The position numbers and the translations under genes are program-made. DNA of 64,000 nucleotides, from positions 7,121 through 71,120 of the forward strand of contig MFGJ01000006.1 of the NCBI GenBank assembly GCA_001778235.1, in the 5' to 3' direction. The DNA comes from Candidatus Falkowbacteria bacterium RIFOXYC2_FULL_36_12. GTDB lineage: Bacteria; Patescibacteriota; Patescibacteriia; UBA11705. Position 1 is the first letter of the stretch, and every line of letters begins with the position of its first letter. Under the pieces are notes generated by a model. The model had not been told where the DNA came from. It made no database searches and saw only the letters and a program-made list of their open reading frames with translations. Shown here one piece after another: positions 5,485-63,720 of this stretch.

Positions 5485-6483
5485 ATGCCAAAAAGAGTTG
5501 CTATCAATGGTTTTGGTCGCATTGGGAGGGCTGTGGCCAAGGTATTGTTGAGCAAAGGCTCAAAGTATCAAATTGTAGCTATTAATGATTTGGGAAATTG
5601 GGATAATTTAGCTTATCTTATGAAGTATGATTCTGCTTATGGCAGATATGATAAACCAGTAGAAATGGTTGGAAAAAACTTGAAAATTGGGAATAAATTA
5701 ATTCCGGTTTTATCAGATCCAAACCCAGCCAAATTGCCTTGGAAGAGATTGAAAGTAGATGTTGTGCTTGAATGTACTGGTGCTTTTACCAAAAAAGAGG
5801 AAGCTGGTAAACATTTGAAAGCTGGGGCAAAGAGTGTTATTATTTCTGCTCCAAGTAATAGTGATGGGATTGTTACTGTAGTAAAAGGTGTAAATGAAAA
5901 GATGGCGAAAAATGCTGGTGTTGTGGCCAATGCATCTTGTACCACCAATTGTACCGGTCCGGTGATGGCAGTGCTCGAGAGTGTTTTTGGCGTTGAAAAA
6001 GCTTTGTTAACAACGATTCACGCTGTAACTGCTTCACAGAGAACTGTTGATTTGCCGACTGAAGATGATTATCGGCGAGGCAGGTCTGCGCTCAATAATC
6101 TGATCCCAACAACAACTGGTGCAGCCATTGCGACAACTTTAACCTTACCATCTTTGAAAGATAAGTTTGATGGAATTTCAATTCGCGTACCAATGATTAC
6201 AGGTTCGCTAGTTGATATTACAGCTTTGTTGAGAAAAAATACTAGCGTCAAGGAAATTAATAATGCTTTTATTAAGTACTCTAAAATGCCAAGATTCAGA
6301 GGAATTCTTGAGGTGACTGAAGATGAGCTTGTTTCCAGTGATATTATTGGAACTGCAGCTTCAGCTATTGTTGATTTGAAATTTACCAAAGTAGTTGATG
6401 GCAATTTGGTGAAAATATTGGCTTGGTATGATAATGAATGGGGTTATTCAAATAGATTGGCAGAAATGGTTGATGAGGTTTAA
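5485..6483 (+). CDS. gap: type I glyceraldehyde-3-phosphate dehydrogenase
   Basis: NGFGRIGR NAD-binding motif and active-site ASCTTNC. Confidence 0.9.
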   Translation: MPKRVAINGFGRIGRAVAKVLLSKGSKYQIVAINDLGNWDNLAYLMKYDSAYGRYDKPVEMVGKNLKIGNKLIPVLSDPNPAKLPWKRLKVDVVLECTGAFTKKEEAGKHLKAGAKSVIISAPSNSDGIVTVVKGVNEKMAKNAGVVANASCTTNCTGPVMAVLESVFGVEKALLTTIHAVTASQRTVDLPTEDDYRRGRSALNNLIPTTTGAAIATTLTLPSLKDKFDGISIRVPMITGSLVDITALLRKNTSVKEINNAFIKYSKMPRFRGILEVTEDELVSSDIIGTAASAIVDLKFTKVVDGNLVKILAWYDNEWGYSNRLAEMVDEV

Positions 6484-6657
6484 GATAAAAGGATATTTTA
6501 AATTGTTATACTGAACTTTTATCAGAATATATTTGGTAAGGTGTGGGTTATGGATATTTAAATTGTTGATGAATATATTTGGCAAGGTGTGTGTTATGGA
6601 TATTTAAATTGTTCATGAATATATTTGGTAAGGTGTGGGTTATGGAGATTTTAAATT
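6484..6657. repeat. tandem repeat, 46-bp unit, about 3.7 copies
   Basis: Unit gaatatatttggtaaggtgtgggttatggatatttaaattgttgat begins at 6525, 6571 and 6617, with a partial copy upstream. Confidence 0.8.
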
Positions 6658-6685
6658 GTCACCCTGAATTTATTTCAGGGTATAA
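6658..6685 (-). repeat. REP-like hairpin element, inverted copy
   Basis: GTCACCCTGAATTTATTTCAGGGTATAA is the reverse complement of the TTATACCCTGAA-loop-TTCAGGGTGAC unit that is arrayed at 6955-7497. Confidence 0.8.
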
Positions 6686-6693
6686 AGGAAAAT

Positions 6694-6954
6694 ATGTATT
6701 ATGTTTATATTTTGACAACAAAAAATAATGCGATGACATATATTGGTGTTACTAATTGTCTTGAGAAGAGAGTTTATAAACATAAAGAGAAAATTAATGA
6801 AGGTTATACAAGAAAGTATAATGTGAATAAGTTGGTTTATTATGAGGAATTTCAATATGTTGAAGATGCAATTAATCGAGAAAAGCAGTTGAAGAATTGG
6901 AGGAAGGAATGGAAAATTAATTTGATTAAAGAATTTAATCCGAGTTTTGAATAA
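6694..6954 (+). CDS. GIY-YIG nuclease family protein (UPF0213-like)
   Basis: 86 aa. YYVYIL...YIGVT...L..R..KHK...Y matches a GIY-YIG domain. RBS-like AAAGGAAAA upstream. The stop codon lies inside a repeat unit. Confidence 0.8.
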   Translation: MYYVYILTTKNNAMTYIGVTNCLEKRVYKHKEKINEGYTRKYNVNKLVYYEEFQYVEDAINREKQLKNWRKEWKINLIKEFNPSFE

Positions 6955-7497
6955 TTATACCCTGAAACAAGTTCAGGGTGACAAGTGAGTGAGAGGTGGT
7001 GATAAGTGTATGGTTGAATAATTATACCCTGAAATCCATCTTCGTTAAAACTTCGATGGACAAGCAAGTTCAGGGTGACAAGTGAGTGAGAGGTGGTGAT
7101 AAGTGTATGGTTGAATAATTATACCCTGAAATCCATCTTCGTTAAAACTTCCGACTACGCTCTTTTGGGAGCTTCGACGGACAAGTCGATGGACAAGCAA
7201 GTTCAGGGTGACAAGTAAGAGGTGATTAATTATACCCTGAAATAAATTCAGGGTGACAAGTGAGTGAGAGGTGGTGATAAGTGTATGGTTGAATAATTAT
7301 ACCCTGAAACAAGTTCAGGGTGACAAGTTGGGAGATCCTGAAACAAGTTCAGGATGACGAGTGTAGGGTTCAGGGTGACAAGTAAGAGGTGATTAATTAT
7401 ACCCTGAAACAAGTTCAGGGTGACAAGTGAGTGAGAGGTGGTGATAAGTGTATGGTTGAATAATTATACCCTGAAATAAATTCAGGGTGACAAGACT
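6955..7497 (+). repeat. array of about 7 REP-like hairpin units
   Basis: Each unit is TTATACCCTGAA-(loop of 5-70 nt)-TTCAGGGTGACAAG followed by GTGAGTGAGAGGTGGTGATAAGTGTATGGTTGAATAA. Some loops carry nested palindromes. The array ends 1 nt before the prepilin peptidase ATG. Confidence 0.85.
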
Positions 7498-8292
7498 ATG
7501 TTGATGATTTATATAATTGCAATTTTACTGGGATTGGCGATTGGTAGTTTTTTAAATGTTGTGATATTTAGATTGCCAGAAGAAAAATCTTTGATAAAAA
7601 TTAGAAGATCTGTTTGTCGTTTTTGTAATAAATTTTTGAAAATAGCTGAATTAATCCCAGTTGTAAGTTTTGTCGTTCAAAAAGGTAAATGTCTTGGTTG
7701 TAAGAAAAAGATTTCTTGGCAGTATCCGATAATTGAGATTATTACAGTTTTGTTTTTTGTGATTGAGGTTTGGTACAGATTGAACCCGACTTTGAATAAT
7801 TTGGGTCATGATATGATTTTGATAGCCAGAGATTTGGTTTTTATCTGTACTTTGATAGTAATTTTCATGATAGATGTTAAACATTTACTTATTTTTGACA
7901 GAACTATCTACCCAGCTATGGTTATTGTATTTATTTTGAATTTTATAGCGTCGGGATTTGATAATAATATATTGTGGAGAATGATTTTAGCCGGTTGTAT
8001 TGGGTATTTGTTTTTTGCTTTGCAATATTATGGGTCAAGAAAGAAATGGGTTGGTGGTGGAGATATGAAGTTAGCAGCTTTGATAGGTGTGGCACTTGGT
8101 GTTTCAGGAATATTGTTAACATTGTTTATTGCCTATGTAGGTGGAGCGATTATTGCTTTGTGTCTGGTTTGGATGAGGAAAAAGCAGATGAACAGTCAGT
8201 TGCCAATGGGGGCATTTTTAGCTCCAGCAGCCATTATAGTCTTATTTTTTGGTACGCAGATATTGGATTGGTATTGGGGGTTTTTGTGGTAG
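7498..8292 (+). CDS. pilD: prepilin peptidase (A24 family)
   Basis: N-terminal TM helix with GSFLNV, a C-x-x-C...C-x-x-C cluster, and multi-TM DUF/peptidase A24-like helices. Confidence 0.75.
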   Translation: MLMIYIIAILLGLAIGSFLNVVIFRLPEEKSLIKIRRSVCRFCNKFLKIAELIPVVSFVVQKGKCLGCKKKISWQYPIIEIITVLFFVIEVWYRLNPTLNNLGHDMILIARDLVFICTLIVIFMIDVKHLLIFDRTIYPAMVIVFILNFIASGFDNNILWRMILAGCIGYLFFALQYYGSRKKWVGGGDMKLAALIGVALGVSGILLTLFIAYVGGAIIALCLVWMRKKQMNSQLPMGAFLAPAAIIVLFFGTQILDWYWGFLW

Positions 8293-19592: not shown

Positions 19593-21569
19593 ATGCGAAT
19601 TGATTATAAACAAGCTCTAAATCTGGAACAGTACAAGGCGGTCGTTGAAGGCGATGGTGCTTGTTTGGTTTTGGCGGGAGCCGGTAGTGGCAAGACCAGA
19701 ACTCTAGTTTACCGCGTAGCCTATCTAATGGAAAAAGGTATAGCTCCAGAAAATATCTTATTGGTAACCTTTACCAATAAAGCGGCCAAAGAAATGATTG
19801 AACGAGTTCAACATTTATTGGGGTTTAAACCAGATGGATTGAATGCGGGGACTTTCCATAGTATGGCCAATAAATTGCTCCGACAATATGCTCATAAAAT
19901 CGGTTTTACTCGAGGATTCAGTATTCTGGATCAAGAAGATTCTGTCAGTCTGGTCAAGGATTGTATGAAAGATTTTAATTTGAATGTAAAAGGACAAAAT
20001 TTTCCTAAAGCCAATGTGGTGCAGGCAATAATTTCTTTTTCTAGAAATTCCAATCAAGAAATAGCTGAAGTTGCCAGAATGAAATATGGTTATCCTGATT
20101 TTATTGCTGATACAATTGATAAATTGGCAATAAATTATAATGACAAGAAAAAAGCCAGTAATTCGATGGATTTTGATGATTTGTTATATTTTTGGTTATT
20201 ATTGCTCCAAAAATTGCCCGAAGTTAGAGCTGAACTGGCTGAACAATTTCAGTATATACTGGTTGATGAGTATCAGGATACCAATTATCTGCAAGCTGCG
20301 ATAATTTATAATTTAGCTTCAAAACATAATAATGTGTTAGTTGTCGGTGATGATTCTCAAAGTATTTATAGTTTTAGAGCAGCCGATGTTGGCAATATAT
20401 TGAATTTCCCTAAAGATTTTCCAGGAGCAAAAATATTTAAGATTGAACACAATTATCGCAGTACTCCTCAAATATTGAATTTGGCTAATAAATCAATTGA
20501 ACACAATCAAGATAAATTTGAAAAAAAATTACAAGCAATCAGAGAAGGAGGAACAATGCCGAATTTAATCCCAGCCAGAGATGTTTATCAGCAAGCACAT
20601 CTTATCTGTAATAAGATAATTGAATATGATGATAAAGGTATTGATTATAATAATATTGCAATATTGTTTCGTTCAACTTTTCATTCAGCGGAATTGCAAT
20701 TGGAATTAGCCAAGAGAAATATTCCTTTCATCGTTCGAGGTGGTTTACGATATTTTGAACAAGCGCATGTAAAGGATTTGGTATCATATTTGAAGATTTT
20801 AGGTAATTTCAAGGATGAACTTGCTTGGAAGCGAATTTTGAAAATGCATGATGGTATTGGTCAGGCAAGTGCTGAAAAAATTTGGCAGGAAATAAATAGT
20901 TATTCTAGTTTGGCGCAAATTATAAATCAGGGATTGGATTTGAGAAATTCGAGAGCTCAAAATAGTTGGGCGAAGATTATTGGTTTATTCACTTTCTTGT
21001 CGGCTATAGATTTTTCAAAAAAAGGTAGTATGGCTGAAGCAATTATTTATGTTCTTGAACATGGATATAGAGATTATTTGAAAACAACTTTTGACAATCA
21101 TAAAGAGAGAATGGATGATGTCCAGCAGTTTATTGATTTTGTTATGACTTATGACAATCTGGACAATTTGTTGTCTGATGTCATGTTGTCAGAAAGTTTT
21201 GCCAATGATAGTGAACAAAGAGAGAAATCAATTGTTCTAACAACGATTCATCAGGCCAAAGGACTTGAATGGAAATATGTTATGATTTTGGGTTTGCGCG
21301 ATGGTGATTTCCCTCATTATAAATCAATGGAGGATCAAAAACAGTTAGAAGAAGAACGACGATTGTTTTATGTAGCAGTTACTCGGGCCAAGGATCAATT
21401 ATTTATGCTTTATCCAATCAGAAAAAATACTTTTCAATACGGCGAGATGACTGGTGGACCATCAATGTTTATTCGAGAGGTAGGCAATGATAAATATGTT
21501 ACGACAAGATCAAATAATTTTGTTGATGAAGGTGGAGAGTGGGAGGATGATGTGGTGTGTTATGATTGA
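19593..21569 (+). CDS. ATP-dependent DNA helicase, UvrD/PcrA family
   Basis: Walker A AGAGSGKTRTL, motifs II (VDEYQDTN), IV and VI. Ends with a TGA stop. Confidence 0.85.
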   Translation: MRIDYKQALNLEQYKAVVEGDGACLVLAGAGSGKTRTLVYRVAYLMEKGIAPENILLVTFTNKAAKEMIERVQHLLGFKPDGLNAGTFHSMANKLLRQYAHKIGFTRGFSILDQEDSVSLVKDCMKDFNLNVKGQNFPKANVVQAIISFSRNSNQEIAEVARMKYGYPDFIADTIDKLAINYNDKKKASNSMDFDDLLYFWLLLLQKLPEVRAELAEQFQYILVDEYQDTNYLQAAIIYNLASKHNNVLVVGDDSQSIYSFRAADVGNILNFPKDFPGAKIFKIEHNYRSTPQILNLANKSIEHNQDKFEKKLQAIREGGTMPNLIPARDVYQQAHLICNKIIEYDDKGIDYNNIAILFRSTFHSAELQLELAKRNIPFIVRGGLRYFEQAHVKDLVSYLKILGNFKDELAWKRILKMHDGIGQASAEKIWQEINSYSSLAQIINQGLDLRNSRAQNSWAKIIGLFTFLSAIDFSKKGSMAEAIIYVLEHGYRDYLKTTFDNHKERMDDVQQFIDFVMTYDNLDNLLSDVMLSESFANDSEQREKSIVLTTIHQAKGLEWKYVMILGLRDGDFPHYKSMEDQKQLEEERRLFYVAVTRAKDQLFMLYPIRKNTFQYGEMTGGPSMFIREVGNDKYVTTRSNNFVDEGGEWEDDVVCYD

Positions 21570-21672
21570 AGATTAAAGATTGAAGATTAAAGATTGAAGA
21601 TTGAAGATTGAAGATTGAAGATTGAAGATTGAAGATTGAAGATTGAAGATTGAAGATTGAAGATTGAAGATT
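21566..21672. repeat. heptanucleotide microsatellite, (GATTGAA)n of about 13 units with two GATTAAA variants
   Basis: A perfect 7-bp periodicity is visible, overlapping the UvrD stop codon. Confidence 0.9.
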
Positions 21673-31508: not shown

Positions 31509-34298
31509 ATGGCAGAAGAAAAAAAAGATAATAATGAAGAAAAGTCAGAATTGAACTATCTGGTTTGTGATTCGTGCAATGGAAAAGGTTTTCTGCAGAA
31601 TGAAAAGTGTCCTAAATGTGGTGGTATGGCAATTGCTGCTCCGTTTTATGGTCGGTTTTTGTATTGGGGTAAAAAAATAGATAATTTAAATATTGTTGTT
31701 GATAGAGCTATCGTTACCATTAACAAAGCAATAAATATTATTTTGGCGGTGATTGGGGTTTTTGGTTTATTTTTCTTGATCTATGTAGCTTATATCAATA
31801 ATTTTAACGAAATATTAACAATAAAATATTGGAATTCGCCATCATATGATAAATCGATTTTTTGGTTTACGATTTTGACTGATTTATATTTATATTATCG
31901 AATTTCAATGCAATCTGGTCCAAGTAAGCAGGTAGTCAGAAAAATATTTTTAAAGCAACCAGAATTACCAGAATTTGTTGATTGGTCATTTGTTCGTAGG
32001 CAATCCAGAAGCAAGTTGGTGGATATTTCTCTGGCTTTTGACAAAGAGTCAATTGAATTGATTGAAACAGCTTGGCAATTGGCTAGAGCTTTGAAACACG
32101 CTGAACTCAAGAGAATACACTTGTTTGCAATGCTTCCGAGTTTTAATGATGGAGCTGTGATATGGGGTCGGCTTGGCATAGATCCAGAGGTTTTCAAGGA
32201 AAAAATGGGTAGGGCGTTCCGTAAATATTCTGATGAAAAAGCCAATCATACTGACATAAGTCATGAAATTTATAAAATTTTAATGAAAGCTTATTTTGAA
32301 GCTTATAATGGTGGTCGGAAAAAAGTTAGTATAACTGAAATCATGTTTGCTTTGGTTGATGTTGATTTGCTTGAAGCGTCAGAAAAGCATGATGACTATA
32401 TTGAGAAAATATTAATTGATTTTGAAATTGATTACCAAAAAGTGATAAATGTTATTGAATGGATTAGACTTCAACGACAATTGCGTGAAGGGTTGCAGAG
32501 ATTTTCAGCCAAAGCACGATATAAACCAAAATCTGGCATGGACAGAGCGATGACTGCGATTGCGACTCCACTGCTCAATCAATTTAGTATTGATTTGACT
32601 TTGCAGGCCAGAAATGGACAGCTTTTTCCCTGTATTGGTCGAGAAAAAGAATTTGAGCAGATTTTTAGAATTATTGAAGGTAGCCGTGATGGAATATTGT
32701 TAACAGGTTTTTCTGGAGTTGGACGAACAACCATATTAAATGGTTTAGCCCAGAGAATGGCGGAAGAAACTGTACCTGATGTGATAAAAGATAAAAGGTT
32801 GGTTAGTATCAGTGTGGCTCATTTGATTAGTGGTGCAGCTCCAGCTGAAGCAGAAGAAAGATTATTAATGGTGGCGGATGAAGTGGTAAAATCAAAGAAT
32901 ATTATTTTAGTGATTGAAGATTTGCATAATTTAGTTGGTGCTGGCGCTGGCAGTGGTGGAACAAGTTTGGATTTGGGCGAAGTTTTTGCTGAAATGGTAA
33001 GAAAGCATTATTTTTATGCATTGGCAACAACTGATCCTGAAAATTTTACAGACCGGATTGAAAGGGGAAGTTTGGGGGAGGTATTTCAGCGAGTACAGGT
33101 CAATGAACTGGAGTTTAATGATGCGATCCAGGTAATTGAAGCTAAAAGTGGACCGATTGAGTACAAGAATAATGTTTTCTTTTCTTATGCTTCAATTGAA
33201 GCTTCAGTTGAGTTGTCAGCAAAATATATTCATGACAAATATTTACCAGAAAAAGCTCTTGATATATTGGAAGAAGTTGCTGTCAAAGTTAGAAAAGATA
33301 GAGGCGCAAGAGCTGTGGTTTCTCGTGAAGATGTGGCTGAAACGATTTCATCAAGTACAGGAATTAAAGTAACAAAAGTGTCTGAAGATGAAAGTCAAAA
33401 ATTATTAAATCTAGAAGATGAGCTTCACAAAAGAGTGATTGGTCAGGAAGAAGCGGTAAAAATGGTTTCTGCCAGCTTACGAAGATCAAGAGCAGAACTT
33501 CGTGATGAAAAACGACCGATTGTAAATTTATTGTTCCTTGGTCCAACTGGAGTGGGAAAAACCGAGTTGGCAAAAGCTGTGGCTGAATCATATTTTGGTC
33601 AGGAAGAGAATATTTTGCGTTTTGATATGAGTGAGTTTCAGGAAAAATCAGCAATTGATAAATTGATTGGGGGTAAAGATGAAGTTGGTGTTTTGACGGA
33701 GGCGGTTCGTAAAAATCCATTTAGTTTAGTTTTGTTTGATGAAGTTGAAAAGGCTCATCCTGATATTTTGAATTTATTTTTGCAGGTGATGGATGATGGT
33801 AGATTAACCGATGGACTTGGGAGGACAATTGATTTTACCAATGTTATTTTAATCATGACCAGCAATGCAGGTGCACAGAGAATCCAGGATGAAATTCAGG
33901 CTGAATTACCGATTGAACAAATAAAAGATCATTTGATAAATGAAGAATTGAAACAAGTGATGAGGCCAGAATTGATTAATCGTTTTGATGGTGTGATTGT
34001 ATTCAAACCGTTGACACAGCTTGAAGTCAATCAGATAGCTGGTTTGATGGCCAAGAAGATTGTCAAAAAATTAGCAGATAAAGAAATTTATCTTACTTTT
34101 ACAGACGAAGCAGTTCATGAATTGGCTGAAGCTGGTTTTGATCCAAAGTTTGGTGCTCGTCCATTGAGACGCGTGATGCAAGAGCGGGTAGATGATATGT
34201 TGGCTAATGCTTTGTTAAAAGGTGAGATAAATAGGCGAGACAAGGTGACTTTGATGCCTGGAGGTGAGTTGAAGGTTGAGAAGGCAGAGGAGATTTAA
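31509..34298 (+). CDS. Clp/Hsp100-family AAA+ ATPase with an N-terminal zinc ribbon and TM segment
   Basis: CDSCNGKG...CPKCGG zinc ribbon, a TM helix near residues 75-95, Clp_N-like repeats, a D1 with an atypical P-loop GFSGVGRTT, and a canonical D2 GPTGVGKTELAKA with sensor motifs. Confidence 0.8.
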   Translation: MAEEKKDNNEEKSELNYLVCDSCNGKGFLQNEKCPKCGGMAIAAPFYGRFLYWGKKIDNLNIVVDRAIVTINKAINIILAVIGVFGLFFLIYVAYINNFNEILTIKYWNSPSYDKSIFWFTILTDLYLYYRISMQSGPSKQVVRKIFLKQPELPEFVDWSFVRRQSRSKLVDISLAFDKESIELIETAWQLARALKHAELKRIHLFAMLPSFNDGAVIWGRLGIDPEVFKEKMGRAFRKYSDEKANHTDISHEIYKILMKAYFEAYNGGRKKVSITEIMFALVDVDLLEASEKHDDYIEKILIDFEIDYQKVINVIEWIRLQRQLREGLQRFSAKARYKPKSGMDRAMTAIATPLLNQFSIDLTLQARNGQLFPCIGREKEFEQIFRIIEGSRDGILLTGFSGVGRTTILNGLAQRMAEETVPDVIKDKRLVSISVAHLISGAAPAEAEERLLMVADEVVKSKNIILVIEDLHNLVGAGAGSGGTSLDLGEVFAEMVRKHYFYALATTDPENFTDRIERGSLGEVFQRVQVNELEFNDAIQVIEAKSGPIEYKNNVFFSYASIEASVELSAKYIHDKYLPEKALDILEEVAVKVRKDRGARAVVSREDVAETISSSTGIKVTKVSEDESQKLLNLEDELHKRVIGQEEAVKMVSASLRRSRAELRDEKRPIVNLLFLGPTGVGKTELAKAVAESYFGQEENILRFDMSEFQEKSAIDKLIGGKDEVGVLTEAVRKNPFSLVLFDEVEKAHPDILNLFLQVMDDGRLTDGLGRTIDFTNVILIMTSNAGAQRIQDEIQAELPIEQIKDHLINEELKQVMRPELINRFDGVIVFKPLTQLEVNQIAGLMAKKIVKKLADKEIYLTFTDEAVHELAEAGFDPKFGARPLRRVMQERVDDMLANALLKGEINRRDKVTLMPGGELKVEKAEEI

Positions 34299-34345: not shown

Positions 34346-34473
34346 TAAGTTAACTAGTTAATTAAGGAGTGATTAAAAATCGATTTATATTTAAAATAAC
34401 TTTCAGTTTTGAGGGTTATTTTTTTTTGAATGCCAGGGAAGACTACTTTGATACTTTGTCTGAACAGACAGGA

Positions 34474-34900
34474 GACTGTCACGTCATGTATTCTCATTCC
34501 TCACAGATTGTGTGGTTTAGTGTATCCAATCTTATGAATGTTGATAAACCAGTTGCGAATCTTTGCCAGAGACTGTCATGTTATGTATTCTCATTCCTCA
34601 CAGATTGTGTGGTTTAGTGTATTCAATCTTGTGAATGTTGATAAACCAGTTGCGAATCTTTGCCAGAGACTGTCACGTCATGTATTCTCATTCCTCACAG
34701 ATTGTGTGGTTTAGTGTATTCAATCTTGTGAATGTTGATAAACCAGTTGCGAATCCTTGCCAGAGACTGTCACGTCATGTATTCTCATTCCTCACAGATT
34801 GTGTGGTTTAGTGTATTCAATCTTGTGAATGTTGATAAACCAGTTGCGAATCTTTGCCAGAGACTGTCATGTCATGTATTCTCATTCCTCACTGGCTTGA
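34474..34900. repeat. 97-bp tandem direct repeat, 4.4 copies
   Basis: The unit GACTGTCACGTCATGTATTCTCATTCCTCACAGATTGTGTGGTTTAGTGTATTCAATCTTGTGAATGTTGATAAACCAGTTGCGAATCTTTGCCAGA starts at 34474, 34571, 34668, 34765 and 34862 (partial), with only a few point differences. Confidence 0.9.
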
Positions 34901-34984: not shown

Positions 34985-36103
34985 ATGACTGTGATAGATT
35001 ATATTTTTGCTTTGGTTTTGAGCTTTATTTTGGCAGGATTTCTGACACCGGCAGTTATTTGGTTTGCCAAGAAAATAAAAGTTTTGGATTATCCGAAAAA
35101 AGAAAGAAAAATTCACAAAAAACCAATACCGCTTCTTGGTGGCTTAGCAATTTTTTTGGCGATAAATATTAGTATAGTTATTTATTATTTTTTTAGTTCA
35201 AGCCTTGTTTATGACAATCTAGTGCCTAAATTTTTGTTAGGAATAATTATTGGTGGATTTTTTGTGATGATTGGTGGTTTTCTTGATGATAAGTTTGATT
35301 TGAATCCCAAATATCAAATTTTATTTCCGGTTGCTGCGATTTTGGCAGTAATTGTCAGCGGAGTTGGAATTGATCAAATGACAAATCCTTTTTCTGGAGG
35401 ATTGTTCCACCTTGATAAATATGTAACAATATTATTTTGGTTTAAGGGGTTGCCATACAAGTTTACACTGCTCGCAGATTTATTTACTTTGATTTGGATG
35501 TTACTGATGATGTATACGACAAAATTGCTTGATGGTCTAGATGGTTTGGTTTCAGGTGTGTCGGTGGTTGGAGGTTTGTTTATTTTTATAACAGCCTTGA
35601 TGAATGATACTGCTCAACCTGATGTAGCAATGCTGGCAATGATAATTATCGGTAGTTTTTTAGCTTTTTTGATTTTTAATTTTAATCCGGCAAAAATATT
35701 TCTTGGAGAAGGTGGTAGTTTGTATTCAGGCTTTATGCTTGGTGTATTGTCGATTATTTCCGGTAGCAAGGTGGCAGTAACTTTGATTGTTATGGGTATT
35801 CCTGTTCTGGATATGTTATGGACCATTATTAGGAGATTAATGGAAGGCAAAAATCCTCTTCGGACTGCTGATCGCAAACATTTGCATTTTCGATTACTTG
35901 ATGCAGGTTTATCAGTTCGACAATCAGTATTTATTTTGTATATTATTTCAATAATTTTCGGTCTAGCAGCCTTGTTTTTACAAAAAATCAGTTTAGGGTT
36001 GACTATTTTAGGGATGATGGTGATATTAACTTTTATTATTATGTCAGGATATTTGTATAAAATTAGGAAAGAAAAGGAAAAAGGTGCACTTGACATATCT
36101 TGA
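34985..36103 (+). CDS. glycosyltransferase family 4 (MraY/WecA-like phospho-sugar transferase)
   Basis: 10-11 TM helices with DDxxD (DDKFDL) and LLDGLDGL motifs. Confidence 0.8.
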   Translation: MTVIDYIFALVLSFILAGFLTPAVIWFAKKIKVLDYPKKERKIHKKPIPLLGGLAIFLAINISIVIYYFFSSSLVYDNLVPKFLLGIIIGGFFVMIGGFLDDKFDLNPKYQILFPVAAILAVIVSGVGIDQMTNPFSGGLFHLDKYVTILFWFKGLPYKFTLLADLFTLIWMLLMMYTTKLLDGLDGLVSGVSVVGGLFIFITALMNDTAQPDVAMLAMIIIGSFLAFLIFNFNPAKIFLGEGGSLYSGFMLGVLSIISGSKVAVTLIVMGIPVLDMLWTIIRRLMEGKNPLRTADRKHLHFRLLDAGLSVRQSVFILYIISIIFGLAALFLQKISLGLTILGMMVILTFIIMSGYLYKIRKEKEKGALDIS

Positions 36104-60406: not shown

Positions 60407-60441
60407 CGCCCGAACCGACAGCCGGGCTGTCGGTTCGGGCG
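60407..60441. repeat. GC-rich perfect palindrome, copy 1
   Basis: CGCCCGAACCGACAGC-CGG-GCTGTCGGTTCGGGCG followed by GAAAGAGAAGTCGGGCGAAAGAG. Confidence 0.8.
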
Positions 60442-60842
60442 AAAGAGAAGTCGGGCGAAAGAGAAAATTGACAAAATTATTTATCTGTACAATTATGATA
60501 TATACATAATCTATGGAATTAGAGGTGACCAAAGGTCACTTCTTACAAAAGGAGGTGTGGATGGTACCACTCAATGAAAGTGATGATTTTACTGCGTCAG
60601 CATGTTCAAACTCAAGTAAATCTAATGCTGTACTTTATCTTGTGGTGGGTTCTCCAAGAATTTTATCGCTACCTTTGATAAGGATAAGGCTTATCGAGCA
60701 TTAAAAAAAGCGGAGCAATTTTCTAGTCATGCTCATGTTGTAGCTATGCCACTTGATGTTTATGATCAAAATAGGTGGGTTGTGTAAAACATTGATAATA
60801 TCAGTGTTTTTTTGTAAAAAGTTAGTTAATGAAAAAACATTT

Positions 60843-60947
60843 TCGCCCGAACCGACAGCCAGGCTGTCGGTTCGGGCGAAAGAGAAGTCGGGGAAAAAGA
60901 AGTCGGGGAAAAAGAAGTCGGGGAAAAGAGAAGTCGGGGAAAGCTTG
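60843..60947. repeat. GC-rich palindrome copy 2 plus a tandem (GAAGTCGGGGAAAAA) x4
   Basis: Same palindrome with one substitution, then four 12-13-bp units. Confidence 0.8.
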
Positions 60948-62111: not shown

Positions 62112-63476
62112 ATGCAGTTAAATTACAAGAAGGTATATTTTTCAGGAATTGGTGGAATTGGTGTGTCTGCCTTGGCAAAAATGTTTTTGCAATCTGGGGT
62201 TGAAGTGGTTGGTTCAGATTCTAATAAATCAGAAATAACTGAAGAAATCGAAAAATTAGGTATCAAAGTAAATTATAAACAAACAGCTGGTAATATTACG
62301 GGTAATTTTGATTTGATGATTTACTCTCCAGCTGTGTCTGAAAATAATCCCGAGCGACAGAAAGCAAAAAAAATAGAATTAATACAAAAAAGTTATCCTG
62401 AAATGCTTGGTAAGATCAGTAAAATGTTTGAAACTGTGGCTGTTTCTGGTACCAATGGCAAATCAACAACAACGGCTATGTTGGCGCAGATTTTGCTTGA
62501 TGCAGGCATTGACCCAACCGTTATTTTGGGATCAAAAATGCCAAGGATTGATGGAAATTTTCACCAAGGTAAAAGTAAATATTTTGTGGTTGAAGCCTGT
62601 GAATATCGTAGTCACATGATGAATTTATCGCCAAAAGCGATTATTTTAACCAATATTGAAGAAGATCATTTGGATTATTTCAAGGATTTGCATCATATAA
62701 TCAGTTCTTTCCAGCAATATATTGAAAAGTTGGGGGTTGATGATTTGCTAGTTATCAATAATGATGATCTCAATATTGCTCAACTGAATTTGCCTGATTG
62801 CAAAATAATGACTTATGGTATTAATAAAGTTTCAGATGTCATGGCTAGTAATGTGCATATAAAAGACGGGCATCAAATTTTTGAACTAGCTTTTAAGGGA
62901 GAAAATGTTGGTGAGGTAAAGTTACAAGTTCCTGGTGTTTTTAATGTTTACAATGCTTTGGCGGCAATCTGCTATGCCATGAGTTTGAATGTTTCGCTTG
63001 AAAAAATAAAAAACAGTTTGCACAGTTTTCCCGGTTTATGGCGAAGATTTGAAAAAATTTGTAATGATGATATTACTGTAATTTCAGATTATGCACATCA
63101 TCCGACTGCGGTGGCAGGAACAATTCAAGCTGCTCGTGATTTTTATTCCGGACGAAGAATTATTGCGGTCTTTCAGCCTCATCAGCATAGCAGGACAAAA
63201 GAATTATTTAATGAATTTGTTGAATCATTAATTAATGCTGATGTGATTATCTTATCAGAGATATTTGATGTGGCAGGACGAGAAGAAACCAAAGATCAAG
63301 ATGTTAGCTCGGATGATTTAGCGAAAGAATTAAATGAAAAAGGTAAGGAAGTATATTTTACTGAAAATTTGAAAAAAACAATAAAGCAAATACAAAAAGT
63401 GATGCAAGCTGGTGATGTTATTTTGGTAATGGGTGCGGGTTCGGTTTATACGATTGTTGAAAAAATTATACCCTGA
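62112..63476 (+). CDS. murC: UDP-N-acetylmuramate--L-alanine ligase
   Basis: GTNGKSTTT P-loop and Mur ligase middle and C-terminal domains. The stop codon lies inside a REP-like unit. Confidence 0.9.
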   Translation: MQLNYKKVYFSGIGGIGVSALAKMFLQSGVEVVGSDSNKSEITEEIEKLGIKVNYKQTAGNITGNFDLMIYSPAVSENNPERQKAKKIELIQKSYPEMLGKISKMFETVAVSGTNGKSTTTAMLAQILLDAGIDPTVILGSKMPRIDGNFHQGKSKYFVVEACEYRSHMMNLSPKAIILTNIEEDHLDYFKDLHHIISSFQQYIEKLGVDDLLVINNDDLNIAQLNLPDCKIMTYGINKVSDVMASNVHIKDGHQIFELAFKGENVGEVKLQVPGVFNVYNALAAICYAMSLNVSLEKIKNSLHSFPGLWRRFEKICNDDITVISDYAHHPTAVAGTIQAARDFYSGRRIIAVFQPHQHSRTKELFNEFVESLINADVIILSEIFDVAGREETKDQDVSSDDLAKELNEKGKEVYFTENLKKTIKQIQKVMQAGDVILVMGAGSVYTIVEKIIP

Positions 63477-63720
63477 AACCATGTACTATAAACAAGTTTA
63501 AGTGCATGGCGAGTAAATTCAGGGTGACAAGTGAGTGAGAGGTTGTGACAAGTGGGTTTTGAAGAATTATACCCTGAAATAAATTCAGGGTGACAAGTGA
63601 GTGAATGTTTTGGCAGGCTTAGCGTGACAAATTATTTGTAGGTTTTTGACAAGCTTACTGGGATAGTTTAATTTATAATTTCTAGCAAATTCAGGATGAC
63701 GAGAAATGTTAATAATTATG
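63463..63720 (+). repeat. REP-like hairpin units, 2 clear copies plus degenerate copies
   Basis: TTATACCCTGAA-loop-TTCAGGGTGACAAGTGAGTGAG... is the same family as 6955-7497. The tail has TTCAGGATGACGAG as seen at about 7350. Confidence 0.8.

What the first reader, a model, noticed from the sequence alone, without database searches (positions are those of the whole stretch)
6658..6985. GIY-YIG nuclease gene bracketed by inverted REP-like hairpins (REP-associated GIY-YIG?)
The 86-aa GIY-YIG ORF (6694-6954) lies between GTCACCCTGAATTTATTTCAGGGTATAA (6658-6685) and its reverse-complement partner TTATACCCTGAAACAAGTTCAGGGTGAC (6955-6982). The same hairpin is amplified into an array of about 7 units immediately downstream and occurs again 56 kb away. 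A nuclease flanked by inverted copies of a dispersed palindromic repeat is the arrangement known for REP-associated tyrosine transposases (RAYTs). Here the nuclease is GIY-YIG instead, so this could be the protein that mobilises or processes this repeat family, or a selfish cassette.
Basis: partly seen in the sequence, partly recalled or inferred. Interest (0 to 1): 0.6.

Follow-up and report, generated by a model that had tools for sequence, protein, structure and literature searches.

The report
Ssn hairpin-cutting nuclease with its repeats
A tiny GIY-YIG nuclease gene in a groundwater CPR bacterium sits between inverted copies of a tagged DNA hairpin that is also amplified next to it, and this gene-plus-hairpin partnership is the Ssn/SRM system described in 2025, so it is a real but already known kind of element, here in a slightly unusual variant.

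Summary
An 86-aa single-domain GIY-YIG ORF (6694-6954) is bracketed by inverted copies of a TGTC-tagged 8-bp hairpin. Eight full copies and one half copy follow it, and two full copies and one half copy lie at 63.5 kb.

The pairing is not chance. Among 83 homologous genes from many phyla, 54 have the same tagged hairpin upstream and 36 have it inverted downstream. Control windows gave 2 and 3 of 145. In a blind search for inverted canonical Neisseria-type hairpins about 330 nt apart, 55 of 80 intervals encoded a homologue of this ORF.

This is the Ssn family of Chenal et al. 2025 (PMC11893778): site-specific single-stranded-DNA nucleases flanked by their cognate hairpin motifs (NTS/SRM). The hairpins belong to the "CGTC-tagged REPs" of Di Nocera et al. 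2013.

A related genome has gap and pilD 1 nt apart, so the whole 1014-bp block is an insertion.

Local peculiarities:
- The base after the palindrome is A, against C in 549 of 560 relatives.
- The published SRM search string does not match.
- The protein is the shortest seen.
- Several hairpins carry nested hairpins in their loops.

Mobilisation by the nuclease remains unproven.

Verdict: a new member of a known kind, of moderate-to-low interest.

The parts
6484..7497 (.). The whole 1014-bp block between the gap stop codon and the pilD start codon. It is an insertion relative to a related genome.
   Evidence: Relative L229/L230 has the gap stop, 1 nt, then the pilD ATG. Its downstream gene order is the same, and it has no ssn gene or tagged hairpin. 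The block is identical in two JGI assemblies.
6491..6655 (+). Decayed upstream units. These are an AT-rich hairpin-like relic (6505-6531) and a 46-bp tandem repeat x2.9 (6525-6659) that runs into the forward hairpin.
   Evidence: Family D5 is 78% identical to the intact hairpin region, and D4 has 3 copies. TRF reports period 46, 92% matches. The relic folds weakly (-1.6 kcal/mol, z -1.2).
6656..6685 (+). Forward-oriented tagged hairpin (SRM-like): TTGTC | ACCCTGAA | TTTAT | TTCAGGGT | ATAA. The TGTC tag starts 37 nt before the ssn ATG.
   Evidence: ssDNA fold is -7.4 kcal/mol, z -3.5. Position and orientation match 54 of 83 homologous loci.
6694..6954 (+). ssn: an 86-aa single-domain GIY-YIG nuclease of the Ssn family.
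   Evidence: PF01541, E=1e-18. Y5, Y16, R26, H30 and E63 are invariant in the alignment. It is 50-68% identical to homologues across phyla and 31-56% identical to proteins flanked by canonical NTS-type hairpins.
6955..6985 (-). Reverse-oriented hairpin R1, abutting the ssn stop codon. On the minus strand it reads CTTGTC ACCCTGAA CTTGT TTCAGGGT ATAA.
   Evidence: Fold is -7.3 kcal/mol, z -3.6.
6986..7021 (.). 36-nt spacer TGAGTGAGAGGTGGTGATAAGTGTATGGTTGAATAA. It recurs identically at 7083, 7261 and 7428. A 14-nt spacer, TAAGAGGTGATTAA, occurs at 7216 and 7383.
   Evidence: Identical spacers mean the array grew by duplication of units (TRF periods 97 and 67).
7022..7082 (-). Hairpin R2 with a 30-nt second tagged hairpin (CTTGTCC ATCGAAGTTTTAACGAAGAT GGA) inserted in its loop after CTTG.
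   Evidence: It folds as one coaxially extended hairpin, -10 kcal/mol, z -2.95.
7119..7215 (-). Hairpin R3. It is the same as R2 with a third tagged hairpin (CTTGTCC GTCGAAGCTCCCAAAAGAGCGTAGTC GGA) nested inside the second.
   Evidence: Fold is -15.6 kcal/mol, z -3.0.
7230..7260 (-). Hairpin R4 (loop TTTAT).
7297..7327 (-). Hairpin R5 (loop CTTGT).
7331..7361 (-). Hairpin R6. It is the only copy of the cosmopolitan canonical type: CTCGTC ATCCTGAA CTTGT TTCAGGAT C.
   Evidence: The same motif flanks ssn homologues in many phyla. Fold is -6.1 kcal/mol, z -4.1.
7369..7382 (-). Half-site: the tag plus the 5' arm only (CTTGTCACCCTGAA).
   Evidence: Comparable half-site runs occur in other loci.
7397..7427 (-). 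Hairpin R7.
7464..7494 (-). Hairpin R8. It ends 3 nt before the pilD start codon.
63466..63531 (-). Second cluster: a hairpin with a 35-nt inner hairpin in its loop. Its arm supplies the murC stop codon (63474-63476).
   Evidence: Fold is -12 kcal/mol, z -4.8.
63567..63597 (-). Second cluster: an intact hairpin, preceded by a diverged copy of the 36-nt spacer.
63690..63703 (-). Second cluster: a half-site of the ATCCTGAA variant (CTCGTCATCCTGAA).

Best explanation
ORF 6694-6954 encodes an Ssn-family nuclease, a stand-alone GIY-YIG domain. The TGTC-tagged hairpins around it are its cognate recognition motifs, the Ssn-related motifs (SRM). SRMs are a subset of the 'CGTC-tagged REPs'.

**Proposed working**
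1. When DNA carrying a motif becomes single-stranded, the 8-bp palindrome folds into a hairpin. This can happen with incoming transforming DNA, at replication or repair intermediates, or on ssDNA elements.
2. The nuclease binds the hairpin together with its oriented 5' tag (C/T)GTC.
3. It cuts that strand a few nucleotides 5' of the tag. Double-stranded DNA, RNA and the complementary strand are not cut.
4. Such cuts shorten or destroy incoming homologous ssDNA that carries the motif. They may also create breaks whose repair duplicates or spreads the motif.

**Shown here**
- Family membership by homology and catalytic residues.
- The conserved position and orientation of the hairpin, upstream forward and downstream reverse.
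- The cassette plus array is an insertion between gap and pilD.
- The array grew by duplication of units, and some units have additional tagged hairpins nested in their loops.

**Taken from published experiments on four homologues (PMC11893778), not on this protein**
- ssDNA-specific, orientation-specific binding and cleavage.
- The effect on natural transformation.

**Inferred**
- This particular 86-aa protein is active.
- It recognises the local variant hairpin, which has A instead of C after the palindrome.
For: **The protein**
- PF01541 E=1e-18 is the only domain.
- Residues corresponding to the SsnA residues whose mutation abolished cleavage (Y6, Y17, E64) are present as Y5, Y16 and E63, and are invariant in the alignment.
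- It is not a UPF0213/YhbQ protein (best PDB hit E=5.6e-4).
- It is not a group-I-intron endonuclease (15 bits against a cut-off of 56).

**The gene-hairpin association**
- Among 83 homologous loci from GTDB genomes, 54 have a perfect GTC-tagged hairpin in forward orientation within 200 nt upstream. 36 have one in reverse orientation downstream, and 27 have both. Control windows gave 2 of 145 and 3 of 145.
- Stems differ between loci while staying palindromic (ATCCTGAA, ATGCTGAA, ACCCTGAA, ATTCCGCA, ATGCCGAA, ATTGCGGG and others).
- Blind reverse test: the pattern CGTCATTCCCGC-N315-345-GCGGGAATGACG in metagenomes gave 80 stored intervals. 55 of them encode a homologue of the window ORF (E from 1e-11 to 1e-30), and the other 25 have no convincing ORF.

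**The literature**
- The same architecture, statistics and biochemistry are published.
- CGTC/TGTC-tagged REPs with 8-9 bp stems and 4-5 nt loops were reported to lack a dedicated transposase.

**Insertion and array growth**
- An empty site exists in relative L229/L230.
- Array length differs between assemblies of the same species, at 101, 446 and 543 nt.
- Loop extensions are tolerated by SsnA in vitro, and the composite hairpins keep the outer stem when folded.
Against: - The base immediately 3' of the palindrome is C in 549 of 560 tagged hairpins from 196 other loci. It was the most critical base for SsnA binding. In the window's amplified family it is A, and only copy 7331-7361 has C.
- The published degenerate SRM string has 0 matches in the window and matched near only 3 of the 83 homologous loci.
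- The protein is shorter than all listed homologues. It lacks the conserved W and D-L near the C-terminus, so it could be impaired.
- Only two repeat clusters are visible in 64 kb, far from the hundreds of copies seen in Neisseria.
- No biochemistry exists for this protein.
Confidence: 0.78

Rival explanations
1. The cassette is an autonomous selfish mobile element, and the GIY-YIG protein acts as its transposase or homing nuclease. On this view ssn plus its inverted hairpins moves as a unit, and the solo hairpins are its non-autonomous derivatives, analogous to REPINs or MITEs. This overlaps with the best explanation rather than excluding it.
For: - A related genome has an empty site, and another relative has a different small gene in the same spacer.
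- Nearly identical hairpins and 55-68% identical proteins occur in unrelated phyla.
- Solo copies sit at a second locus and overlap the murC stop codon.
- Nested tagged hairpins occur in loops, repeatedly right after a loop 'CTTG', in the window and in L015, L025, L028 and L081.
- The authors of the Ssn paper raise the IS-like hypothesis themselves.
Against: - GIY-YIG enzymes hydrolyse DNA and form no covalent intermediate (established knowledge of the superfamily). Strand transfer would therefore need host functions.
- No target-site duplications or precise ends of a moving unit could be defined.
- There is only one ssn copy in 64 kb.
- The array units share identical spacers, which fits local duplication rather than transposition.
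- No excision or insertion polymorphism was seen among assemblies, only changes in unit number, and those could be assembly collapse.
Confidence: 0.25
2. The locus is a decaying relic. The nuclease is impaired by its truncated C-terminus. The A-tailed hairpins are no longer its substrates and persist or expand passively. At most they act as RNA or DNA stem-loops that affect transcript stability or termination between gap, ssn, pilD and murC.
For: - The critical C is replaced by A in 11 of 12 full copies.
- This is the shortest protein of the family. Reading in frame past its TAA gives LYPETSSG*, the kind of C-terminus that homologues encode through the hairpin.
- Decayed hairpin relics lie upstream.
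- On the minus strand the hairpins are followed by a T-rich run and score as terminator-like.
Against: - All catalytic and nearly all invariant residues are intact.
- The ORF and both flanking hairpins are identical in many independent assemblies.
- The hairpins are perfectly paired and homogeneous, which argues for recent amplification or selection.
- No minus-strand genes are present for them to terminate.
- On the plus, transcribed strand they lack a T-run.
Confidence: 0.15
3. The hairpins are generic REP-like or terminator elements with no functional tie to the GIY-YIG gene, which would be a housekeeping UPF0213/YhbQ-type protein or an intron-type homing endonuclease.
For: - Hairpins at the 3' ends of genes are common in bacteria.
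- There is a weak PHROG hit to a 'homing endonuclease with GIY-YIG motif' (E=5.8e-4).
Against: - The association is 54 of 83 against 2 of 145, and the blind reverse test gave 55 of 80.
- Similarity to the UPF0213 structures is weak.
- There is no DNA-binding extension, no intron context, and no Rfam hit.
Confidence: 0.03

Closest known systems
Ssn nucleases with NTS/SRM hairpin repeats (SsnA of Neisseria meningitidis, NMB0047/NMV_0044; CDD cd10448, GIY-YIG_unchar_3). Chenal et al., Nat Commun 2025, PMC11893778.
   Same: - A single-domain GIY-YIG protein of about 90 aa with the same catalytic residues.
- A gene flanked by inverted copies of an oriented hairpin: (C/T)GTC tag, A-start 8-bp stem, short loop.
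- Further copies clustered nearby and elsewhere in intergenic DNA.
- A wide, patchy phylogenetic distribution.
   Different: - The host is a CPR/Patescibacteria bacterium, a group not mentioned in the paper.
- The stem is ACCCTGAA with a 5-nt loop, and it does not match the published degenerate SRM string.
- The base after the palindrome is A, not the near-universal C.
- The protein is shorter at the C-terminus.
- Some hairpins have nested hairpins in their loops.
- Few copies are visible.
- Activity has not been tested.
CGTC-tagged REPs (families CGTC-1 to CGTC-4, including Neisseria dRS3 and Rickettsia RPE-4/6). Di Nocera, De Gregorio and Rocco, BMC Genomics 2013, PMC3733652.
   Same: - The terminal CGTC tag is often changed to TGTC.
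- 8-9 bp stems and 4-5 nt loops.
- A short unpaired tail.
- Mostly intergenic, lying downstream of genes.
- Head-to-head pairs.
   Different: - That paper found no dedicated enzyme. Here, and in the Ssn paper, the GIY-YIG gene is the partner.
- The stem starts AC rather than the usual AT.
- The tail is ATA rather than CCA.
- Copies are clustered rather than mostly dispersed.
REP/BIME elements with RAYT (TnpA-REP) tyrosine transposases, and REPINs.
   Same: - A single nuclease gene bracketed by inverted copies of the palindromic repeat it recognises as a single-stranded hairpin.
- Repeats amplified into mosaic clusters.
- An oriented unpaired tag next to the stem.
   Different: - The enzyme fold and chemistry differ: an HUH/Y1 enzyme with a covalent 5'-phosphotyrosine intermediate, against a hydrolytic GIY-YIG enzyme.
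- The tag is GTAG rather than CGTC.
- There is no homology.
IS200/IS605 'peel and paste' elements.
   Same: - Recognition of sub-terminal hairpins in ssDNA.
- Strand and orientation specificity.
- A possible link to replication-strand exposure.
   Different: - No TnpA or TnpB is present.
- The hairpins here are inverted with respect to each other, not in the same orientation on one strand.
- Transposition has not been shown.

Membership tests
Ssn nuclease family (cd10448) with SRM repeats | A stand-alone GIY-YIG domain protein of about 90-100 aa with no additional domain. | tested here: met
   86 aa. PF01541 covers residues 1-76 at E=1e-18, and there is no other real domain.
Ssn nuclease family (cd10448) with SRM repeats | The catalytic residues whose mutation abolishes cleavage in SsnA (Y6, Y17, E64). 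| tested here: met
   Y5, Y16 and E63, together with R26 and H30, are invariant in an alignment with 12 homologues. Five of these homologues are flanked by canonical NTS-type stems.
Ssn nuclease family (cd10448) with SRM repeats | Sequence homology to N. meningitidis SsnA (the paper's criterion is E<1e-10), or assignment to CDD cd10448. | not testable with these tools
   The SsnA sequence and the CDD were not available, and no supplements are held. As a proxy, 55 proteins lying between inverted CGTCATTCCCGC...GCGGGAATGACG hairpins match the window ORF at E from 1e-11 to 1e-30 and 31-56% identity.
Ssn nuclease family (cd10448) with SRM repeats | The gene is flanked on both sides by oriented hairpin motifs in inverted orientation. 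| tested here: met
   The forward copy is at 6656-6685 and the reverse copy at 6955-6985. The same layout occurs in 27 of 83 homologous loci on both sides, and in 54 of 83 on the upstream side.
Ssn nuclease family (cd10448) with SRM repeats | The motif matches the published degenerate SRM search string HGTCWYN(0-2)YYVSBRHN(0-5)WNVSBRGN(0-2)RNCYNB. | tested here: not met
   There are 0 matches in the window. The string does match the canonical NTS, but it misses all CCTGAA-type hairpins and matched near only 3 of the 83 homologous loci. The string is a search aid built from 29 genomes, not a definition.
Ssn nuclease family (cd10448) with SRM repeats | A cytosine immediately 3' of the palindrome, the base most critical for SsnA binding. 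| tested here: not met
   This base is A in all ACCCTGAA copies and C only in copy 7331-7361. It is C in 549 of 560 hairpins elsewhere.
Ssn nuclease family (cd10448) with SRM repeats | Binds and cuts only ssDNA, in one orientation, a few nucleotides 5' of the motif. | not testable with these tools
   This needs purified protein and labelled oligonucleotides. It has been shown for four homologues only.
CGTC-tagged REPs (Di Nocera 2013) | An unpaired terminal CGTC tag (or TGTC/CCTC), an 8-9 bp stem, a 4-5 nt loop and a short 3' tail. | tested here: met
   TGTC + ACCCTGAA + 5-nt loop + TTCAGGGT + ATA. Two minor departures: the stem starts AC rather than AT, and the tail is ATA rather than CCA.
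RAYT/REP (REPtron) | An HUH/Y1 tyrosine transposase (IS200/IS605 TnpA fold) flanked by GTAG-tagged REPs. | tested here: not met
   The protein is a GIY-YIG protein with no Y1 transposase hit. The tag is TGTC, not GTAG.
UPF0213 / YhbQ-type GIY-YIG proteins | Close similarity to BH0048, EF2693 or YhbQ. | tested here: not met
   There are only weak matches, at E=5.6e-4 and 0.17, against 1e-30 to Ssn-type homologues.
GIY-YIG homing endonucleases (I-TevI/Seg, group I intron type) | A GIY-YIG domain plus a C-terminal DNA-binding region, in an intron or phage context. | tested here: not met
   TIGR01453 scores 15.4 bits against a cut-off of 56. The protein is only 86 aa, with no intron and no Rfam hit. 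Homologues are rare in viral contigs, at 31 loci.
CRISPR array | Identical repeats separated by unique spacers. | tested here: not met
   The spacers are themselves repeated identically: the 36-nt spacer 4 times and the 14-nt spacer twice.

The most novel reading that the evidence does not exclude
In this reading the Ssn/SRM pair is a self-propagating single-stranded-DNA element, and the CPR locus catches it in the act.

- The cassette inserted between two adjacent genes.
- Its hairpins were amplified.
- Further tagged hairpins landed inside hairpin loops, right after a loop 'CTTG' that mimics the 5' tag.
- The lineage has switched the base that is normally essential for binding (C to A), together with a shortened nuclease C-terminus. 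That would be a natural change of specificity.

If this is true, a hydrolytic GIY-YIG nuclease would be the long-missing propagating enzyme of the CGTC-tagged REP superfamily. Its hairpin loops would be its preferred targets.
Probability: 0.2. Interest if true: 0.65.

Novelty: new member of a known kind. Interest (0 to 1): 0.3.

Why it matters
- **Host range.** The locus extends the Ssn/SRM system to CPR/Patescibacteria. These bacteria depend heavily on DNA uptake through type IV pili, and here the cassette sits directly in front of the prepilin peptidase gene.
- **A natural variant.** This variant breaks two rules drawn from Neisseria, namely the C after the palindrome and the published search string. 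Ssn enzymes are being developed as programmable ssDNA cutters. A naturally re-specified enzyme/motif pair would therefore be a useful test case for how such a small protein reads its hairpin.
- **Clues to repeat spread.** The empty site, the duplicated units and the nested hairpins are circumstantial clues to how CGTC-tagged REPs spread. That question has been open since 2013.
- **The basic finding is not new.** A GIY-YIG nuclease gene partnered with flanking hairpin repeats is already published.

Tried and rejected
- **Rfam.** A gathering-threshold search of the whole window found nothing, and an E-value search of 6300-7700 gave only chance-level miRNA and snoRNA hits. There are no tRNAs.
- **Defence and phage libraries.** PADLOC gave no hit. 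PHROGs gave only a weak generic GIY-YIG hit. NCBIfam gave nothing above its cut-offs.
- **Published SRM string.** It has no match in the window, and I verified that my implementation does match the canonical NTS.
- **Viral contigs.** A search for the window-specific hairpin found 0 matches.
- **Literature.** Searches for GIY-YIG combined with REP, RAYT or MITE terms found nothing relevant. The 'CGTC' and 'dRS3' terms then led to the Ssn paper. No later Ssn papers are in the library.
- **N. meningitidis SsnA sequence.** I could not obtain it, because no supplements are held.
- **Pair-counting covariation test.** I did not run it on the hairpins. My hairpin set was selected for perfect pairing, so the test would be circular. 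I rely instead on enrichment over control windows.
- **Intrinsic terminators.** Rejected. There is no T-run on the transcribed strand, and only minus-strand matches appeared where no genes lie.
- **CRISPR-like array.** Rejected because the spacers are identical.
- **Coding repeat.** Rejected. Minus-strand ORFs across the array are artefacts of the repeat.
- **Array-length differences between assemblies**. These cannot be separated from short-read assembly collapse.
Full report
**1. What is in the sequence**

The window has 35% G+C. Between a GAPDH gene (gap, 5485-6483) and a prepilin peptidase gene (pilD, 7498-8292) lies a 1014-nt block. From left to right it contains:
- three decayed AT-rich units (6491-6655, including a 46-bp tandem repeat x2.9);
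- one intact hairpin, TTGTC-ACCCTGAA-TTTAT-TTCAGGGT-ATAA (6656-6685);
- an 86-aa ORF (6694-6954);
- directly after its stop codon, an array of the same hairpin in the opposite orientation.

The array holds five intact copies (6955, 7230, 7297, 7397, 7464). Two more copies have extra DNA in the loop (7022-7082, 7119-7215). One is a sequence variant (7331-7361), and there is one half-site (7369-7382).

The spacers are themselves repeated. An identical 36-nt spacer occurs four times and a 14-nt spacer twice. The array therefore grew by duplication of units and is not CRISPR-like.

A second cluster lies 56 kb away, directly at the end of murC. It has one copy with a loop insertion (63466-63531), whose arm supplies the murC stop codon. 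It also has one intact copy (63567-63597) and one half-site (63690-63703).

The motif is far above chance: 13 matches against 0.56 expected, and 7 against 0 for the whole hairpin. As single-stranded DNA the hairpins fold at -6 to -7 kcal/mol, with z between -3.5 and -4.1. The block is identical in two independent JGI assemblies.

**2. The protein**

The ORF is a GIY-YIG domain and nothing else (PF01541, E=1e-18). Other GIY-YIG families do not fit:
- The UPF0213/YhbQ structures match only weakly (E=5.6e-4).
- It falls far below the cut-off of the group-I-intron endonuclease model.
- It has no PADLOC hit.

It has more than 2,200 relatives in the 5.8-billion-protein set. The best are 60-68% identical and come from very different phyla. 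Y5, Y16, R26, H30 and E63 are invariant.

It is the shortest member seen. It ends at NPSFE, where relatives continue NPxWxDL.... Read in frame past its TAA, the DNA continues LYPETSSG* through the hairpin. In at least 13 homologous loci the ORF does run through the hairpin and stops at the TGA of the TGACA tag.

**3. The gene-hairpin pairing is general**

I examined 83 homologous loci from distinct GTDB genomes. They span Flavobacteriaceae, Gammaproteobacteria, Alphaproteobacteria, Nitrospirota, Melainabacteria, Elusimicrobia, many CPR groups and others.
- 54 carry a perfect GTC-tagged hairpin in forward orientation within 200 nt upstream of the start codon, typically 31-50 nt.
- 36 carry one in reverse orientation within 200 nt downstream, typically abutting the stop.
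- 27 carry both.
- Control windows more than 1 kb away gave 2 of 145 and 3 of 145.

The stems differ between loci (ATCCTGAA, ATGCTGAA, ACCCTGAA, ATTCCGCA, ATGCCGAA, ATTGCGGG, ATCCCGGA and others). They remain palindromic, and the tag, loop types (CTTGT, CTTGA, TTTAT) and tail are conserved.

I also ran the test in reverse. I searched metagenomes for inverted canonical Neisseria-type arms about 330 nt apart (CGTCATTCCCGC-N315-345-GCGGGAATGACG). More than 120 places matched. Of the 80 stored intervals, 55 encode a homologue of the window ORF (31-56% identity, E from 1e-11 to 1e-30). The other 25 have no convincing ORF.

**4. This is already known**

Literature searches led to two papers.

*Di Nocera et al. 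2013 (PMC3733652).* They defined 'CGTC-tagged REPs'. The features are a terminal CGTC or TGTC tag, 8-9 bp stems, 4-5 nt loops and a short tail. The class includes Neisseria dRS3 and Rickettsia RPEs. They stated that these repeats 'apparently lack a dedicated transposase'.

*Chenal et al. 2025 (PMC11893778).* They reported the following.
- A 94-aa single-domain GIY-YIG protein of N. meningitidis (SsnA, NMB0047, CDD cd10448), and its homologues in many phyla, are flanked by these oriented hairpins. The hairpins are called NTS in Neisseria and, more generally, Ssn-related motifs (SRM).
- 71% of homologues have a motif nearby, and 42% have one on both sides.
- SsnA and three homologues bind the hairpin only in single-stranded DNA and only in one orientation.
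- They cut a few nucleotides 5' of the motif.
- In the meningococcus this lowers transformation by motif-carrying DNA.

The authors note the IS-like NTS-ssnA-NTS layout and the analogy to RAYT/REP, and they offer mobility or domestication only as a hypothesis. No later work on the family is in the library. The window locus has this architecture, so I file it as a member of the family.

**5. Where the window departs from the published picture**

- **(a) Search string.** The published degenerate SRM string does not match the window's hairpin. It also misses the widespread CCTGAA-type hairpins near the closest homologues, matching near only 3 of 83 loci. The same implementation does match the canonical NTS.
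- **(b) Tail base.** The base right after the palindrome is C in 549 of 560 distinct tagged hairpins from 196 other loci. It was the single most important base for SsnA binding. In the window's amplified family it is A. Only copy 7331-7361 (CGTC-ATCCTGAA-CTTGT-TTCAGGAT-C) is of the cosmopolitan type.
- **(c) Protein length.** The protein is truncated at the C-terminus.
- **(d) Host.** The host is a CPR bacterium. Its nearest named GAPDH relatives are Candidatus Falkowbacteria at 71% identity. The paper does not mention this group.

Protein similarity tracks hairpin type weakly. The window protein averages 57% identity to proteins with CTGAA-type hairpins and 44% to those with canonical NTS arms. 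The first set was chosen for similarity to the window, so this comparison is biased.

**6. Evidence on origin and dynamics**

The same species occurs in many groundwater assemblies, always with ssn between gap and pilD. The spacer between ssn and pilD measures 543 nt in the window and two JGI assemblies, 446 nt (one 97-nt unit fewer) in others, and 101 nt (two hairpins) in two ENA assemblies. Many contigs break inside the array. These differences may be real alleles or may reflect collapse in short-read assembly.

A relative (GCA_964413735.1, GAPDH 68% identical) has the same downstream gene order. In it, the pilD start lies 1 nt after the gap stop, and there is no ssn gene or tagged hairpin in 9 kb. 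Another relative (77% identical) has a 23S-rRNA-IVP family gene in that spacer instead. The whole block is therefore an insertion.

**7. Nested hairpins**

In three window copies the loop holds a further hairpin with its own 5' tag (CTTGTC or CTCGCC), and in 7119-7215 a third hairpin is nested in the second. As ssDNA these fold into coaxially extended hairpins that keep the outer stem.

The same design recurs in other phyla, with an insert right after the loop's CTTG in L015, L025, L028 and L081. Other loop-extended forms occur in L054, L062, L063 and L082. Several loci also show runs of tag-plus-5'-arm half-sites that end in one complete hairpin.

SsnA tolerates loop extensions in vitro, so such copies could remain substrates. 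Whether these structures record insertion events is unknown. They are the most interesting lead here.

**8. Mechanism and confidence**

Most likely (0.78), this is an Ssn-family nuclease with its cognate hairpins, working as published. The hairpin forms in single-stranded DNA, the nuclease binds it in an orientation-specific way, and it nicks 5' of the tag.

That this particular short protein is active on the A-tailed motif is an inference. A relic state (0.15) is possible. A truly self-mobilising element (0.25, overlapping with the main explanation) is possible but unproven. An unrelated-hairpin reading is excluded.

**9. Verdict**

This is a new member of a known kind, with a natural motif variant and nested-hairpin structures that merit a biochemical test. 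Interest is moderate to low (0.3).

Noticed in passing
window 7022-7082, 7119-7215, 63466-63531; loci L015, L025, L028, L081, L054, L062, L063, L082: Some hairpins carry one or two further tagged hairpins nested in the loop, often right after a loop 'CTTG' that resembles the 5' tag CTTGTC. They fold as coaxially extended hairpins. The same design recurs in unrelated phyla, which suggests that hairpin loops are preferred landing sites.
   Followed up: partly
L029, L065, L103, L109, L163, L043, L034; window 7369-7382 and 63690-63703: Tandem runs of half-sites (tag plus 5' arm plus 8-17 nt) end in one complete hairpin, for example five copies of CCCTATCC-GTCATTCCCGC in L163. This looks like a recurrent by-product of whatever process copies these motifs.
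   Followed up: no
window 63466-63476 and 6952-6957: The murC stop codon (TGA at 63474-63476) lies inside a hairpin arm, so the repeat supplies the end of an essential gene. The ssn stop abuts its hairpin, and the in-frame continuation LYPETSSG* looks like the ancestral C-terminus, read through the hairpin to the TGA of the tag.
   Followed up: partly
whole window: GC skew is strongly positive on the plus strand (+0.12 to +0.34 in 7 of 8 bins). 12 of the 13 motif copies, counting half-sites, have their recognisable strand on the minus strand, which would be the leading-strand template and so less exposed as ssDNA. There are too few independent events to test this.
   Followed up: no
L226 5094-5534 (relative, GAPDH 77% identical): The same gap-pilD spacer holds a 146-aa 23S_rRNA_IVP family gene in place of ssn. 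This intergenic spot seems to be a recurrent landing place for small accessory genes.
   Followed up: no
window 34472-34892: A 97-bp tandem repeat, 4.3 copies at 97% identity, lies in the intergenic region between ORFs 31509-34298 and 34985-36103. It is unrelated in sequence to the hairpin repeat.
   Followed up: no
window 21564-21672; 60435-60465 and 60872-60942: There are two kinds of short tandem repeat. GATTGAA x15.6 begins at the last bases of an ORF that ends at 21569 and runs into the intergenic region. TCGGGGAAAAAGAAG-like 15-16-mers occur at two nearby places.
   Followed up: no
window about 45433 and 48371 (minus strand): Two similar GC-rich hairpins, CCCGTCGGGTAGCTCCGCTACCCGTCC and CCTGTCGGATAGCTCCGCTACCCGTCC, lie 3 kb apart. 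The generic GTC-tag scan picked them up. They are probably unrelated to the Ssn motif.
   Followed up: no
L210/L211, L214, L223 compared with window 6955-7497: Assemblies of the same species differ in array length, at 2 units, one 97-nt unit fewer, or full length. One copy in L223 has a 5-nt loop deletion. This is either real population variation or short-read collapse.
   Followed up: partly
IMG/VR loci L231-L261: Ssn homologues are rare in 2.9 million viral contigs (31 loci), and the window-specific hairpin is absent there. The family is not mainly phage-borne.
   Followed up: partly
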